Shown here: in pieces, positions 1 through 13,203 of the stretch | Numbering within the stretch: position 1 is the first letter of the stretch | Layout of the letters: each line of letters opens with the position of its first letter | Notes under the pieces: model-generated | Databases searched by the model: none | What the model saw: the letters and a program-made list of their open reading frames with translations, nothing else | Told to the model about the DNA's origin: nothing | From: an uncultured Gammaproteobacteria bacterium | Lineage (GTDB): Bacteria; Patescibacteriota; Patescibacteriia; UBA9934; CAZDDW01 | Length of the DNA stretch: 57,378 nt | NCBI GenBank assembly: GCA_964504365.1 | Contig: CAZDDW010000001.1 | Coordinates: 1-57,378, forward strand | Direction: 5' to 3' | Program-made: the position numbers and the translations under genes

Positions 1-9
1 GGGAAGAAA

Positions 10-258
10 ATGTATCAATTCAGAACTTCTGGTGGAGTTCCTCCGTCGCTCGATCGGGAAGCAATGCAACGCTTCCGCGATCGCGAGAAGGATCGCAAGA
101 TCGGCGTGGCCGCAGCCAAGGCGCGTGGGGAGAGCATCTTCGCACCGCTGATCCCGGCCGAGGGGCACGCCGACGACGTGTTCCAGCCCATGCCCACGGC
201 CCTGACGGCCACGGGCACCCCGGTCTTCGAGGCCGTGCTGGCCAATACCCAGTCCTAG
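10..258 (+). CDS. hypothetical protein (82 aa; may be 5'-truncated)
   Basis: GC-rich ORF on the same strand as all island genes; no recognisable motif. Confidence 0.55.
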   Translation: MYQFRTSGGVPPSLDREAMQRFRDREKDRKIGVAAAKARGESIFAPLIPAEGHADDVFQPMPTALTATGTPVFEAVLANTQS

Positions 259-282
259 AACCCAAGATCCCTGAAAGGGGGG

Positions 283-630
283 ATGATGTACCCGATCTTC
301 AAGATCGAGGATCTGGTGGTCGTCCTGCCGTCTGCTCATGCCGAGCGGGCAGGAGAACTGCTGGACGAAGAGTGGATCTTCCTGATCGCCAACACTGACC
401 TGGCCGTGATGAGCAGCCAGCGCCTGTTGCACGACGCCCGGCTGGAACCCACCGTGGTCATCCAGATTCAGGGTGACGAGCTACAAGAGGCGATGGACGA
501 GCTGATCGCAGCCGAGCGTCCGGATGGCACCGAGGTCATCTGGGACAACCTGTCCCTGTTCAACGAAGAGCCCGACGAAGAGCCGGCACAGATCGAACCC
601 CGTACGATCGTCTGGCCTCGCGCGGCCTAG
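283..630 (+). CDS. hypothetical acidic protein (115 aa)
   Basis: Purine-rich SD-like AAAGGGGGG before ATG; GC-rich third positions like neighbours. Confidence 0.7.
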   Translation: MMYPIFKIEDLVVVLPSAHAERAGELLDEEWIFLIANTDLAVMSSQRLLHDARLEPTVVIQIQGDELQEAMDELIAAERPDGTEVIWDNLSLFNEEPDEEPAQIEPRTIVWPRAA

Positions 631-695
631 AGTCCTTTTCCACCCACCCTCACTCACCCTGAACCAGACGCCGCTACGCGTCGACGGTTCAGGGC

Positions 696-810
696 CCTGC
701 CAGAGATTCTGAGAGAAGTAGAGAGTAGAAAGTTGAAAGTAGAAAGAAACAAATCTAGTTCCTTTCTACTATCTACCATCTACTTTCTACCCCTCGGAGC
801 CCCTGGCAGG
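696..810 (+). repeat. CCAC-family hairpin copy H1, long form with heptad-repeat insert
   Basis: cctgccag...ctggcagg outer stem; inner gtagagagtagaaagttgaaagtagaaag / ctttctactatctaccatctactttctac arms. Confidence 0.9.
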
Positions 811-966
811 TCCAAACTACAACGAGAAAGTTATGGCGAGAGATGATAAACTATTGTAGTGAGAGGGCGGTCATTACAACTTAATATCCAAGGCACGTGA
901 ACATTTGTTCGTGTATCTTGGAATCAACATCAGGATGAGCCTGGTGTTGAGGAGGTCGCACAGCTT

Positions 967-1038
967 GGAGGTATCAAAATGAAACTGTGCAAAAGGTGGT
1001 AGTCGGAACCACCTAAAACAAACCGGCCGGCTTGAGCG
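967..1038 (+). promoter_or_regulatory. SD-led 7-codon ORF (MKLCKRW, 979-1002) overlapping an H-type pseudoknot
   Basis: GGAGGT 967-972; stem aggtggt/accacct; loop gtcgg pairs with ccggc 1023-1027 after an A-rich linker. Confidence 0.6.
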
Positions 1039-1134
1039 CCGCTGATTGGGGACTGCACCATTGTGGTGCGAAATCTGGCAGAAATGTCAGTGCGGCTGTG
1101 ACGCAGCTGTAGAAGGGGTATGTTCACCTAACAA

Positions 1135-1159
1135 ACTCATAAAATGTGAGTTCTTTTTT
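1135..1159 (+). terminator. terminator-like hairpin with U-tract
   Basis: actcat-aaa-atgtgagt-like stem followed by tctttttt. Confidence 0.45.
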
Positions 1160-1279
1160 AAAAAAAAGGAGAACATCCTTGTGCATTGTGCACAACGTGC
1201 TTCGGCACGAAAGCAAAACGTTAATCATACGTCAGACCCTTCACCCAAATAGAACGTCAGCAAAAGCTCAGGCTCTGTT

Positions 1280-1930
1280 TTTCCTGGTGACAGACCAGGT
1301 GGATCTGCTCGATCTATATGCTAGAGCAAAAGCGCCACCAAGGTTGTCTATGATCTGAGGTGGTGGTGGATACGCGGCAATTGCCTGCTGCGTTGAAGCT
1401 GGAATAGTAGAGGCCGGCAAGTGCCCGGACCCAAAAGAGTGTTATCAAGGGTCCTCACGAGGGATTCAGTTCTCAAAAGAGAGCAGCACTCACCATATCT
1501 GCTTGGCAAGCAGGTCTGTGGGCATTCACGGATGAGGACCAATGAGCAAGTGAAACTAGCAGTGCTTTGTAGAGAATCCCCGCCACCGGACTTTAGTGCC
1601 GGGGTTGCTGCGTTTAACGGCGCGTAGTGAAGGGGTACAACCCAACGTCCAGCATTGTGTTGGACAAAACTGTCAGCCCTCGCCTTGCCAGATTCAGTTC
1701 TGGAAGAAAAGGAGGGTGAGGAGGGTGGCATCTCCTTGATAAAAAACATGGCCAAAAAAAGCTCGTTCAAGGCATGTTAGGGAATCCTGTTTTGCGGGAT
1801 CAGCCACAGGAAGGTATAAAGGCCGGACAAGGAGTACGGCCTGGAGCCTAGGCAATGGGTATATTGTGTAGGATATGAACGGGGCATGTTCGCTTCCGTA
1901 ATATTCTTCCCCTGTTGCGACAAATCCTGG
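1280..1930 (+). ncRNA. large structured non-coding RNA, copy 1 (family unidentified)
   Basis: No credible CDS; 72/75 nt identical block with 9262-9336; compensatory changes against copies 2 and 3; ends approximate. Confidence 0.75.
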
Positions 1931-1973
1931 TGATAGAGAAATCGAATTAGAACCCAACACCCTGGAGGTAATC

Positions 1974-11392: not shown

Positions 11393-11496
11393 CTTCCACT
11401 TGAGAAGTTCAGAATTCTTCAAACGGACTTTAGTCCGGTTTGAAGGGAATGACACATTGAAGCGTGTCAGTGCTTTCTGGAAAGCTCAAGTGGGAG
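11393..11496 (+). repeat. CCAC-family hairpin copy H8 (H7 stem with a different branched insert)
   Basis: Same arms as H7 enclosing a ~60-nt two-hairpin insert. Confidence 0.8.
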
Positions 11497-11521
11497 AGTA
11501 TAATAACGCCAAGGAGGGACA

Positions 11522-11749
11522 ATGTCCCAGATCGAATACAAGATTTTCGACGCTATTCCGTACATCTGGGGCTGGGCACTGATCCTGGGAATCTGGGGAG
11601 TGCTCATCGCCCTGATGTCTGAGGTTTTCGGCTTACCGGCGGTCTACACTCGGGTTACCGAGCACGCCATTGCTCCGGGCATCCTTTGCCTGTTCCCGGC
11701 TGTACTCAGCGAACCCTTCATCTACAAGATTTGGGGGCCAGGATCATGA
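11522..11749 (+). CDS. small membrane protein (75 aa)
   Basis: SD AAGGAGG; hydrophobic. Confidence 0.7.
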   Translation: MSQIEYKIFDAIPYIWGWALILGIWGVLIALMSEVFGLPAVYTRVTEHAIAPGILCLFPAVLSEPFIYKIWGPGS

Positions 11750-12018
11750 ATACCATTTTCAAATGGTTTGTGGCTATCTGTGCTGCTGTCCTGATTCCGT
11801 TTCACCACCTGTACTTGTTCGCAGTCGCTTACGAGTACCTGCTTCACGGCAACAATCCGAACGGTTACACTCTGTTTGGATACTTGGCCGAAGTAGCCAT
11901 TGTCCTGTCCGGCGACGGGGTGATGCTGCTTCTGTTGATGCTGGTGATCTGGATCCGCTTCGTTCGTTCCCGTCATCTCACCCCGAGTTCGTCCTCGGGG
12001 CCCCACCAGAGCTTCTGA
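11746..12018 (+). CDS. small membrane protein (90 aa)
   Basis: ATGA coupling; hydrophobic; stop TGA lies inside hairpin H9. Confidence 0.7.
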   Translation: MNTIFKWFVAICAAVLIPFHHLYLFAVAYEYLLHGNNPNGYTLFGYLAEVAIVLSGDGVMLLLLMLVIWIRFVRSRHLTPSSSSGPHQSF

Positions 12019-12039
12019 ATATTCAGGGTTTCTGGTGGG
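12002..12039 (+). repeat. CCAC-family hairpin copy H9, short form
   Basis: cccaccagagcttctgaatattcagggtttctggtggg. Confidence 0.8.
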
Positions 12040-12063
12040 TACTATTTATGTGGAGGAGACGTT

Positions 12064-12468
12064 TTGAAGAATACCGAAAGAACAATGCGCAGTTTCGTCT
12101 TTCTGGTGTACCAGCTGGCTGTGATCGAACAGCTACCGCCCACGCCGTGGACGGATCACAAGGTCACCACTGACAAGCGCGCCATGCTCTTGCGCCAGGG
12201 CTGGAAGAATGCCAGCAAGGGTCGGATGCAGATGTGTCTACGCTTCGATCTGCCGGACGGATCCGCTGCCTTCCTGGGCAACGGCGACCTCCGGGGTAAC
12301 GGCAGCAACGGCTGGTTCGGTCTGATCGAAGGGCCGATCGCCGAGCGCGTCGGTTACAGGTGGATCGAGTTCGGCCCCCTGGCCGATATCGAGATCGACA
12401 CCAAGATCCTTCTGGCTTCGCTGCCGCGGCACCAGCCGTTCAGGCTTCGTCCGAGGCCGACTGGCTGA
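12064..12468 (+). CDS. hypothetical protein (134 aa)
   Basis: SD GGAGGAG before TTG 12064; GC-rich coding bias. Confidence 0.65.
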   Translation: MKNTERTMRSFVFLVYQLAVIEQLPPTPWTDHKVTTDKRAMLLRQGWKNASKGRMQMCLRFDLPDGSAAFLGNGDLRGNGSNGWFGLIEGPIAERVGYRWIEFGPLADIEIDTKILLASLPRHQPFRLRPRPTG

Positions 12469-12575
12469 GATCCGTTCTTCACTGGACAACTGATCACTAC
12501 CCCCCAACTCACCCTGTACCAGACACCACTTCGTGACGTCGGTACAGGACCTTGCCCCGAGCACGACCTCGGGGC

Positions 12576-12664
12576 CCCACCTAAGCGCGGCAATATTTTG
12601 CCTCAGAGCATAAAAGATCTCTCTCCTTTAGTTCAAGGTAGAACCATTGCTGTGCTTAGGTGGG
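12576..12664 (+). repeat. CCAC-family hairpin copy H10 (diverged)
   Basis: cccacctaagcgcggcaat...attgctgtgcttaggtggg followed by SD AGGAGG and ATG 12681. Confidence 0.6.
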
Positions 12665-12801
12665 TAAAATAGGAGGAACGATGAGAACAAATGCCCGGAT
12701 CGTGCCATTGACTCAGCCTGCGAGGGCTGCGCCAAACCGGCACGATCGTCACGAGTTCATGGTGAACTCCTCGGTCGTGTTCGACGACAAGAGGAGTGAT
12801 C

Positions 12802-13128
12802 ATGGGCTACTTCATCACCGATGAACTGCTACCTGATCGCGGAGAAGAAGTAGAGGAAATCCTATACAAGGCAGATTGCCAAGTAACCGATATCCTCATC
12901 GAGAAGGGAATGGCCGGTCAGGCCCCTGACCAGGAAACCTACAAGCAGATTCGTGACTGCTTTCCTAGCGAAGAGAGGTACGATCACCACGCCCAGTGGT
13001 GGATCGGCCTGCTTCAAGAAACCAGCCACCTGGTAGGCATTGGCCTGCTCCCACCCACCATGCGCCCTGAGCGCTGGGAAGAAGTGCCTGAGGCACTTAC
13101 CCGCTACCAGGAGTGCAACGACGCGTAA
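12802..13128 (+). CDS. hypothetical protein (108 aa)
   Basis: SD AAGAGGAG; last island gene before a terminator. Confidence 0.7.
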   Translation: MGYFITDELLPDRGEEVEEILYKADCQVTDILIEKGMAGQAPDQETYKQIRDCFPSEERYDHHAQWWIGLLQETSHLVGIGLLPPTMRPERWEEVPEALTRYQECNDA

Positions 13129-13167
13129 ACTCCCTCCGGCCTGATCGTTCTGATCGGGCCACACCAC

Positions 13168-13203
13168 AAACACATCGGTTTTAAGCCGGTGTGTTTTTGT
13201 TTA
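13168..13203 (+). terminator. intrinsic terminator closing the island
   Basis: aaacacatcgg/ccggtgtgttt plus T tail. Confidence 0.7.

What the first reader, a model, noticed from the sequence alone, without database searches (positions are those of the whole stretch)
1..13203. RNA-punctuated, cassette-like accessory island
Seen: about 20 genes all on the + strand, mostly unknown. Almost every gene or gene pair is bounded by related stacked hairpins that end just before an SD, and roughly 3 kb of the 13 kb is structured non-coding DNA in an otherwise compact genome. Repeats overlap stop codons (5487, 8731, 12018) and SDs (9697). Inference: a modular array in which conserved RNA/DNA hairpins serve as processing, translation-control or recombination junctions, and large ncRNAs are carried like cassettes. 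No integrase, transposase or RT is in the window.
Basis: partly seen in the sequence, partly recalled or inferred. Interest (0 to 1): 0.85.

Follow-up and report, generated by a model that had tools for sequence, protein, structure and literature searches.

The report
Hairpin-punctuated variable operon in a CPR bacterium
A tiny-genome Uhrbacteria-type bacterium carries, at a fixed chromosomal spot, a long one-directional block of fast-changing orphan genes; conserved RNA hairpins separate the genes, and a conserved promoter and leader RNA precede the block and probably drive it. This looks like a new variant of the intergenic repeat elements already known in bacteria.

Summary
Window 1-13203 holds 17 CDS, all on the + strand. 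It is only 60% coding, against about 94% for the rest of the window. It has 10 copies of one hairpin family ("hairpin A": base CCCACC..GGUGGG, apex from 4 to more than 140 nt), usually abutted by GC-rich "B" hairpins, and it contains three paralogous 1.0-1.6 kb non-coding units.

The island continues leftwards on contig C13 with 4 more hairpin A copies. There it begins at a strong promoter followed by a leader RNA that ends in a terminator. It ends at the terminator at 13168-13196.

The locus (IleRS, 284-aa gene, [island], 407-aa gene, RuvA, FemAB) is conserved across the family, but gene content and order are mosaic between species.

I found no integrase, integron integrase, attC cores or phage structural genes. 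The hairpins are island-specific, all in the transcribed orientation, and richer in G·U than in A·C pairs.

Best reading: REP-like intercistronic RNA stem-loops in one long accessory operon. They would act in mRNA processing, stability or insulation, and would passively give homology for cassette shuffling. Site-specific recombination is not supported.

The leader RNA is found in 29 of 162 genomes of the order and has no Rfam match.

The parts
1..630 (+). Two CDS (10-258, 283-630) with no family match. The contig starts here, so the island continues leftwards on contig C13.
654..810 (+). Junction module: hairpin B (CCCTGAACC..GGTTCAGGG), then hairpin A (696-810, base CCTGCCAG/CTGGCAGG). The genome-wide GTAGAAAG palindrome (713-795) is nested in its apex.
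811..1973 (+). Non-coding unit 1: mini-ORF MKLCKRW* (969-992), a terminator-like hairpin with U-run around 1135-1160, and large structured RNA copy 1 (about 1280-1960).
   Evidence: no Rfam match
1974..4343 (+). 789-aa protein with PPDK_N and PEP-utilizers swivel domains and an unusual C-terminal domain. It matches the phage 'kinase' family phrog_18609.
4385..4470 (+). Two strong hairpins unrelated to family A (z = -8.5).
4518..5487 (+). Two CDS: 4518-5003 (weak DSP-phosphatase-like match) and 5038-5487 (orphan).
5485..5671 (+). Junction: stop TAG inside the repeat CATAGTTCTTTGGAAGCG, two B hairpins, then hairpin A (5557-5671) with the nested palindrome.
5765..6376 (+). Orphan CDS (GC3 0.92). 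No homologue among 5.8 billion proteins.
6377..7948 (+). Non-coding unit 2: B hairpins, hairpin A with palindrome (6477-6591), 21-aa mini-ORF (6635-6700), terminator-like hairpin (about 6826-6866), large RNA copy 2, then a B hairpin and hairpin A (7890-7929) ending 19 nt before the ATG at 7949.
7949..8731 (+). Orphan CDS of 260 aa. Only 3 weak hits among 1.84 billion representatives.
8729..9710 (+). Non-coding unit 3: stop inside the repeat, B hairpin, hairpin A with palindrome (8773-8880), mini-ORF MEQFEWW* (8903-8926), large RNA copy 3, then a B hairpin and hairpin A (9655-9694) running into the SD.
9711..10299 (+). Three small membrane-protein CDS (9711-9893, 9903-10169, 10180-10299). The 9903 gene belongs to family F3, shared with G002 and M23.
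10334..10569 (+). Junction: two B hairpins, hairpin A (10384-10426), then a 5'-UTR 'U element' of about 140 nt (10427-10569). The U element has 5 full copies (3 on C13, 1 here, 1 in M23), and C13 ends inside a further partial copy.
10570..11318 (+). Two overlapping CDS (10570-10890, 10887-11318).
11345..11494 (+). Junction: two B hairpins and hairpin A with a branched 100-nt apex (11395-11494).
11522..12018 (+). Two overlapping small membrane CDS (11522-11749, family F4; 11746-12018). The last 11 codons and the stop of the second are read through hairpin B and the 5' arm of hairpin A.
11981..12039 (+). Hairpin B plus hairpin A (12002-12039), containing the stop codon at 12016-12018.
12064..12468 (+). 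CDS of family F2, the only island gene conserved at DNA level in G002, M23 and M26.
12509..12664 (+). Two B hairpins and the 'terminal-type' hairpin A (12576-12664, z = -10). In G002, M23 and M26 its homologue carries a U-tract and ends the island.
12681..13128 (+). Two further CDS (12681-12824, 12802-13128).
13168..13196 (+). Intrinsic terminator (13-bp stem followed by TTGTTTATT). This is the right end of the island.

Best explanation
The stretch is the right-hand two-thirds of one long accessory operon of at least 18 kb. It sits at a conserved chromosomal hotspot in a Candidatus Uhrbacteria (CPR) lineage.

Shown:
- The unit starts on contig C13 at a near-consensus promoter (TTGACA, 17 nt, TGnTATACT).
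- A conserved leader RNA follows, and it ends in its own intrinsic terminator.
- The unit runs through high-GC, mostly orphan genes for small membrane and surface proteins.
- It ends at a terminator at 13168-13196.

Inferred:
- Genes or groups of 1-3 genes are separated by REP-like stacked RNA stem-loops: variable GC-rich B hairpins abutting a hairpin A with a conserved CCCACC/GGUGGG base.
- These work on the transcript. They define processing points (RNase III or other endonucleases; the long nested palindromes are near-perfect duplexes).
- After cleavage they leave a 3' hairpin that protects the upstream message and a 5' hairpin 16-45 nt before the next start codon that protects or insulates the downstream one.
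- The leader terminator gates the whole unit.

Shown as a pattern, with the mechanism inferred: because the same modules recur 14 times in G000, ordinary homologous recombination and gene conversion between them shuffles, duplicates and swaps genes.
For: Extent and locus:
- C13 ends inside a repeat that is shared with window 10431-10579, and it carries 4 more hairpin A copies.
- The left flank is syntenic with G002.
- The right flank is syntenic in L023, G001 and G003.

Promoter and leader:
- They are conserved in 4 genomes, with 13 compensatory pairs.
- The leader model hits 29 of 162 genomes.
- It precedes genes with GC3 of 0.7-0.83 in other genera.

One transcript: internal promoter-like sites are not enriched (8 found, 7.1 expected). 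The only strong terminator in the window part is at 13168.

Hairpins:
- z = -3.9 to -10 for ten junctions.
- 91.7% of cells are paired, against 30-56% when the partners are slid.
- G·U 26 against A·C 6.
- All 36 copies in four islands are in the sense orientation.
- Copies without the palindrome fold more stably on the + strand.
- The covariance model finds the minimal form only in the island, plus one 30-bit hit elsewhere in 1.07 Mb.
- RNase III is encoded in the genome.

Shuffling:
- Family order differs among four islands.
- Junction blocks have moved relative to genes.
- There are 99-100% identical junction duplicates in G002.
- A hairpin with the same CCCACC..GGUGGG base lies after a leader in G151, which belongs to another family.
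Against: - No transcript data exist. Cleavage, polycistronic transcription and stabilisation are all inferred.
- Minimal hairpin A has 16-18 bp with mismatches, which is short for a classical RNase III site.
- Some rearrangement breakpoints lie at plain gene borders without hairpins.
- Generic GC-rich stems are also frequent in the other high-GC patches of this genome.
- The counts of paired cells are not independent, because many copies are recent duplicates.
- The C13-C1 junction is not assembled.
Confidence: 0.52

Rival explanations
1. The hairpins are selfish REP/MITE-like repeats. They spread and homogenise inside the island by replication slippage, gene conversion or a trans-acting HUH transposase, and have no function for the host. 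Their position between genes only reflects where insertions are tolerated.
For: - Recent near-identical duplicates exist.
- A true genome-wide palindrome with 19 loci is nested in five copies.
- Two Y1_Tnp (IS200/RAYT-type) genes exist in the genome.
- Modules invade the 3' ends of genes.
Against: - The family is confined to one locus rather than dispersed.
- Orientation is strictly the sense strand in 36 of 36 copies.
- There is a G·U over A·C bias.
- Spacing to the start codon is constrained.
- The CCCACC/GGUGGG base recurs in another family of the order in the same context.
- The Y1_Tnp genes are not flanked by island repeats.
Confidence: 0.17
2. The modules act on transcription. They would be pause or partial-terminator sites that set a polarity gradient, read through by RNA polymerase that has been modified at the conserved leader (put/EAR/nut-like processive antitermination).
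For: - The leader ends in a conserved terminator, with a 5' GAGAGAG that could pair with the CUCUC in it.
- The terminal hairpin A variant plus a U-tract is the island terminator in G002, M23 and M26.
- About 5 kb of untranslated RNA must be transcribed within the unit.
- A boxA-like AGTTCTTTGGAAG motif occurs in 4 modules.
Against: - Internal hairpins lack U-tracts.
- The boxA-like motif is absent from all other islands.
- It is also absent from the 16S leader of G003.
- No known antitermination RNA family matches.
Confidence: 0.15
3. The hairpins are DNA-level recombination sites of an integron-like or other site-specific cassette system (a CALIN-like array), with the recombinase encoded elsewhere.
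For: - Cassettes are unidirectional and apparently promoterless, with a structured repeat after each one.
- Gene content is mosaic between relatives.
- The sequence folds as a single strand with a uniform orientation.
Against: - There is no integron integrase. The best TIGR02249 hit scores 89 bits against a cut-off of 265 and looks like a Xer-type gene on C4.
- 0 of 36 hairpins have both the RYYYAAC and GTTRRRY cores.
- The left end of the island is a promoter and leader, not an attI/intI.
- Breakpoints are not fixed at one position of the hairpin.
Confidence: 0.06
4. It is a decayed prophage or a phage early region captured by the chromosome, with T7- or SP82-style RNase III sites between early genes.
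For: - The PPDK-like kinase matches phrog_18609 at 1e-129. Its relatives sit in Vibrio, Stenotrophomonas and Listeria phages.
- Many small orphan genes run in one direction from a strong promoter.
- GC content differs from the host.
Against: - There are no structural, replication or integrase genes.
- The hairpin pattern has no match in viral contigs.
- The locus, promoter and leader are inherited across a whole family, and the leader across an order.
Confidence: 0.08

Closest known systems
REP / BIME elements (repetitive extragenic palindromes of enterobacteria and pseudomonads)
   Same: - Imperfect palindromes of about 35-40 nt, often in clusters of adjacent hairpins.
- They lie between genes of one operon, just after stop codons, and are transcribed.
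- They are known to stabilise upstream mRNA and to modulate translation or termination. They are also substrates for recombination.
   Different: - Here the family is confined to one island (14 copies in about 18 kb, about 1 elsewhere) rather than hundreds genome-wide.
- It has one strict orientation.
- It has a conserved helix base with a freely swappable, often branched apex of up to more than 140 nt.
- No flanking RAYT gene is present.
RNase III processing sites between the early and late genes of phage T7 (and SP82/SPO1 in Bacillus)
   Same: - Related hairpins with small internal loops punctuate a long polycistronic transcript.
- They would leave a protective 3' hairpin upstream and a defined 5' end before the next SD.
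- The host encodes RNase III.
   Different: - This is a chromosomal locus inherited across a bacterial family, not a phage.
- Cleavage is untested.
- The minimal stems are shorter than typical RNase III substrates.
Integron gene-cassette arrays / CALINs (attC sites)
   Same: Unidirectional, mostly promoterless genes of unknown function, each followed by a structured imperfect palindrome. Content varies between relatives, and one promoter sits at the head of the array.
   Different: - No IntI and no attI.
- No R''/R' core sites.
- The signals of selection are on the sense RNA strand.
- The hairpins end next to the SD of the following gene.
- Rearrangements look like homologous or illegitimate recombination.
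23S rRNA intervening sequences and their PF05635 four-helix-bundle ORFs
   Same: The nested GTAGAAAG palindrome sits in the apical loop of a host RNA helix. Its arms also flank the PF05635 gene at 14538-14900.
   Different: Here the host helix is an mRNA junction hairpin, not rRNA. Excision by RNase III is only inferred.

Membership tests
Integron / CALIN | Integron integrase (IntI) in the element or genome | tested here: not met
   TIGR02249 search of the whole genome: best hit 89 bits against a cut-off of 265, on contig C4.
Integron / CALIN | attC core sites RYYYAAC ... GTTRRRY at the base of each palindrome | tested here: not met
   0 of 36 hairpins have both cores on either strand.
REP / BIME | Short imperfect extragenic palindromes, often clustered, within transcription units | tested here: met
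REP / BIME | Dispersed genome-wide in many copies | tested here: not met
   Covariance model R1 hits the minimal form only in the island, plus one 30-bit hit at C1:175153.
REP / BIME | Associated RAYT (Y1 HUH transposase) flanked by the repeats | tested here: inconclusive
   Two Y1_Tnp genes (C10, C11) exist, but without island repeats in their flanks.
Phage-type RNase III processing sites | Related hairpins between cistrons of one transcript, and RNase III available | tested here: met
   Structures; the RNase III gene at C3:69102-69482 scores 120.8 bits.
Phage-type RNase III processing sites | Cleavage at the hairpins in vivo or in vitro | not testable with these tools
Intrinsic terminators | GC-rich stem followed directly by a U-tract | tested here: not met
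   Met only at 13168-13196 and at the terminal hairpin A of G002, M23 and M26. Internal modules lack U-tracts.
Prophage / integrative element | Integrase, structural or replication genes, att duplication | tested here: not met
   Pfam, PHROG and PADLOC scans; the locus is conserved across a family.
Known RNA families (Rfam 15) for hairpin A, U element, large RNAs and leader | Match to a curated covariance model | tested here: not met
   Only chance-level miRNA-type hits.

The most novel reading that the evidence does not exclude
An order-wide CPR 'cassette expression platform'. A conserved promoter and a terminator-bearing leader RNA (no Rfam family; found in 20 of 55 genera) gate hypervariable, high-GC operons of orphan surface and membrane genes. 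The cistrons are separated by hairpins whose conserved CCCACC/GGUGGG base is the recognition site of a dedicated trans-acting RNA-binding protein or endonuclease. This would be an RNA-level functional analogue of integron arrays or of CRISPR pre-crRNA processing. The large RNAs and U elements would ride as non-coding cassettes.
Probability: 0.2. Interest if true: 0.85.

Novelty: new variant of a known kind. Interest (0 to 1): 0.62.

Why it matters
CPR bacteria have genomes of about 1 Mb with very little spare DNA. Yet this locus spends about 40% of 13 kb on structured RNA and keeps doing so across species while its genes turn over.

If the hairpins and the leader are functional, three things follow:
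- They define how these organisms express and diversify their variable surface and membrane repertoire, which is likely relevant to host attachment or phage escape.
- They add at least one widespread, undescribed cis-regulatory RNA (the leader), and possibly three more RNA motifs.
- They offer natural intercistronic insulator parts.

The locus also gives a marker (leader plus CCCACC hairpins) for finding flexible islands in Patescibacteria MAGs.

Tried and rejected
- Viral contigs, hairpin pattern: 0 matches.
- Viral contigs, large-RNA motif: 0 matches.
- GTDB genome contigs, hairpin pattern: 9 single, chance-like hits in unrelated phyla.
- Metagenome contigs: both scans returned 0, although L023 should match. 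The collection may leave out near relatives.
- tmRNA idea for the leader: ARAGORN finds no tmRNA anywhere in the genome, and Rfam finds none at the locus.
- boxA/nut idea: the motif is limited to 4 G000 modules. It is absent from the other islands and from the G003 16S leader.
- Internal promoters after each hairpin: not enriched.
- RAYT link: no repeats flank the Y1_Tnp genes.
- Loose IUPAC pattern over the order: swamped by chance matches; only G000 stands out, with 15 forward against 3 control.
- Sliding RNAfold over the whole genome: timed out. The perfect-stem substitute misses hairpin A and shows that generic stems are also common in other high-GC patches.
- Literature searches: nothing on such islands.
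- Contexts of the PPDK-like homologues: unrelated to this architecture.

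
Full report
**What is there**

The window is C1:1-57378 of a 1.07-Mb, 19-contig genome. A relative's protein is named Candidatus Uhrbacteria by its source.

- Positions 1-13200 have 49-63% GC; the rest of the window has 41-56%, mostly 41-49%.
- I count 17 CDS and 3 mini-ORFs, all on the + strand.
- Coding covers 60% of the stretch, against about 94% for the rest of the window, where the median gap is 40 nt. Non-coding DNA is therefore about 5.2 kb, not 3 kb.
- Three stretches (631-1973, 6377-7948, 8732-9710) are paralogous non-coding units. 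They have conserved blocks and visibly compensatory changes.
- None of the non-coding elements matches an Rfam family.

**The hairpins**

- One family, here called hairpin A, has a base of 5'-(Y)CCCACCWRAG ... CTYWGGTGGG-3'.
- Its minimal form is 40 nt: an 8-bp stem, two 1x1 mismatches, a 7-bp stem and a tetraloop.
- It occurs 10 times in the window and 4 more times on contig C13.
- Its apex ranges from a tetraloop to branched inserts of more than 140 nt.
- In five G000 copies the apex holds a 75-nt GTAGAAAG palindrome. That palindrome is a separate element found at 19 loci genome-wide.
- GC-rich B hairpins (CCC..GGG) usually abut hairpin A with 0-1 nt between.
- All ten junction segments tested fold with z = -3.9 to -10.
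- In an alignment of 12 minimal copies, 91.7% of cells pair, against 30-56% when the partners are slid. Six pairs show double changes.
- G·U pairs outnumber A·C by 26 to 6.
- Copies without the palindrome are mostly more stable on the + strand.

**Is it special to this place?**

- A covariance model of the minimal hairpin finds only island copies in the own genome, plus one 30-bit hit at C1:175153 and a marginal one at 263425. Both lie in other high-GC patches.
- Among 162 genomes of the order, only the sister species G002 has strong hits. A few genomes have single weaker ones.
- The refutation condition 'equally common throughout the genome' therefore fails for this family.
- Generic GC stems, however, are also frequent in the other high-GC patches.

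**Extending the island**

- The window starts at a contig end.
- Contig C13 from about 24.5 kb to its end has the same composition, hairpins and a 130-nt 5'-UTR 'U element'. That element is also present at window 10427-10569. C13 ends inside such a repeat.
- The C13 part begins right after an IleRS gene and a 284-aa gene. It opens with TTGACA, 17 nt, TGTTATACT.
- A leader follows: GAGAGAGCCC..GGG.UAAGG, a variable hairpin, then a terminator with a U-run.
- No recombinase is present.

**Relatives**

- G002 has the same two flank genes (49% and 75% identity), the same promoter and leader, and an island of about 9 kb with 10 hairpin A copies.
- Two metagenome contigs (L023, L026) carry further versions. 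Their right flank is GlmS, a 405-aa gene, RuvA and FemAB, which matches the window's 407-aa gene, RuvA and FemAB.
- G001 (same genus) and G003 (another genus) also have a high-GC block between the 284-aa and 407-aa genes. Their genes differ and they have their own hairpin families, for example CCCACCTTG...GGGGTGGG in G001.
- Nine small gene families are shared among the four closest islands, in different orders and with different neighbours.
- Homologous junction blocks sit before a gene in one island and after it in another.
- In G002 two unrelated genes share an identical 73-nt segment made of their last codons plus the junction.
- In the window, gene 11746-12018 is read through hairpin B and half of hairpin A.
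- Some breakpoints lie at plain gene borders, so the hairpins are not the only junctions.

**The leader**

- It is conserved in G000, G001, G002 and twice in G003, with 13 pairs kept by double changes.
- A model built from it hits 29 of 162 genomes and 20 of 55 genera of the order, usually 1-3 times per genome.
- G000 has three copies.
- The downstream genes examined have GC3 of 0.7-0.83 and encode lipoproteins or small membrane proteins.
- In G151 (another family) a leader is followed by high-GC genes. Two of their junctions again end in hairpins with a CCCACC..GGTGGG base just before the SD.

**What it is not**

- Not an integron: there is no integron integrase and no attC cores.
- Not a phage: no phage structural or integrase genes appear. 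The only phage link is the PPDK-like kinase, which matches phrog_18609 and has relatives in Vibrio and Stenotrophomonas phages.
- Internal promoters are not enriched. The only strong terminator in the window part is at 13168-13196.
- In G002, M23 and M26 the last hairpin A variant carries the U-tract that ends the island.
- Island proteins are essentially orphans.

**Mechanism**

- Shown: the architecture; the strand and pairing signals; island specificity; the conserved head and tail; mosaicism; and the presence of RNase III.
- Inferred: one long transcript gated by the leader terminator; endonucleolytic processing at the modules; 3' and 5' hairpins that protect and insulate the resulting messages; and recombination between repeated modules as the shuffling engine.
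- The conserved helix base across families suggests a specific trans factor, which is unknown.

**Verdict**

Noticed in passing
L012:10504-10694 (= C13:24503-24693); also C13:17001-17086 and C9:34106-34191 (-): A conserved promoter plus leader RNA (GAGAGAGCCC..GGG.UAAGG, a variable hairpin, then a terminator) with no Rfam match. It is found in 29 of 162 genomes of the order and precedes high-GC3 accessory genes. It is a candidate new attenuator or riboswitch-like motif.
   Followed up: partly
window 10427-10569; L012:12804-12945, 13805-13950, 14945-15075; L023:2605-2745: A structured 5'-UTR 'U element' of about 130-140 nt, with an invariant CCUAUCCCG..CGGG..AUAGGAACCGUC core and variable inserted hairpins. 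It sits before unrelated genes that lack a canonical SD.
   Followed up: partly
window 14500-14933: The PF05635 (23S rRNA intervening-sequence protein) gene at 14538-14900 is flanked by the two arms of the GTAGAAAG palindrome. That palindrome occurs empty at 18 other loci, as if it were the empty form of an ORF-carrying element.
   Followed up: partly
window 969-992, 6635-6700, 8903-8926: Each large non-coding unit starts with an SD-led mini-ORF. Two of them end in Trp codons (MKLCKRW*, MEQFEWW*), and their stop codon lies in a GGTGG..CCACC hairpin. A terminator-like hairpin follows. This looks like leader-peptide attenuation.
   Followed up: no
whole genome (G000): ARAGORN finds 43 tRNAs but no tmRNA in a genome that is 98.9% complete.
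   Followed up: no
G000 C6:33.5-47 kb, C1:171-175.5 kb, C1:203-220 kb, C1:260-267.5 kb: These are other high-GC patches with high-GC3 genes. C1:175153 (-) and C1:263425 (+) carry hairpin A-like elements (CCCATCAGAG..CTGTGATGGG; CCGACCTGAG..CTCGGGTGGG).
   Followed up: partly
L011:9938-10339 and 13117-13614 (G002): Two low-GC, minus-strand, repeat-rich coiled-coil genes (21-nt periodic repeats) are embedded in the otherwise plus-strand high-GC island. Each lies in a duplicated segment of about 350 nt.
   Followed up: no
window 1974-4343: The C-terminal 290 residues of the PPDK-like protein have only 7 homologues (34-40% identity) among 5.8 billion proteins, all with the same PPDK_N and swivel front end.
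   Followed up: partly
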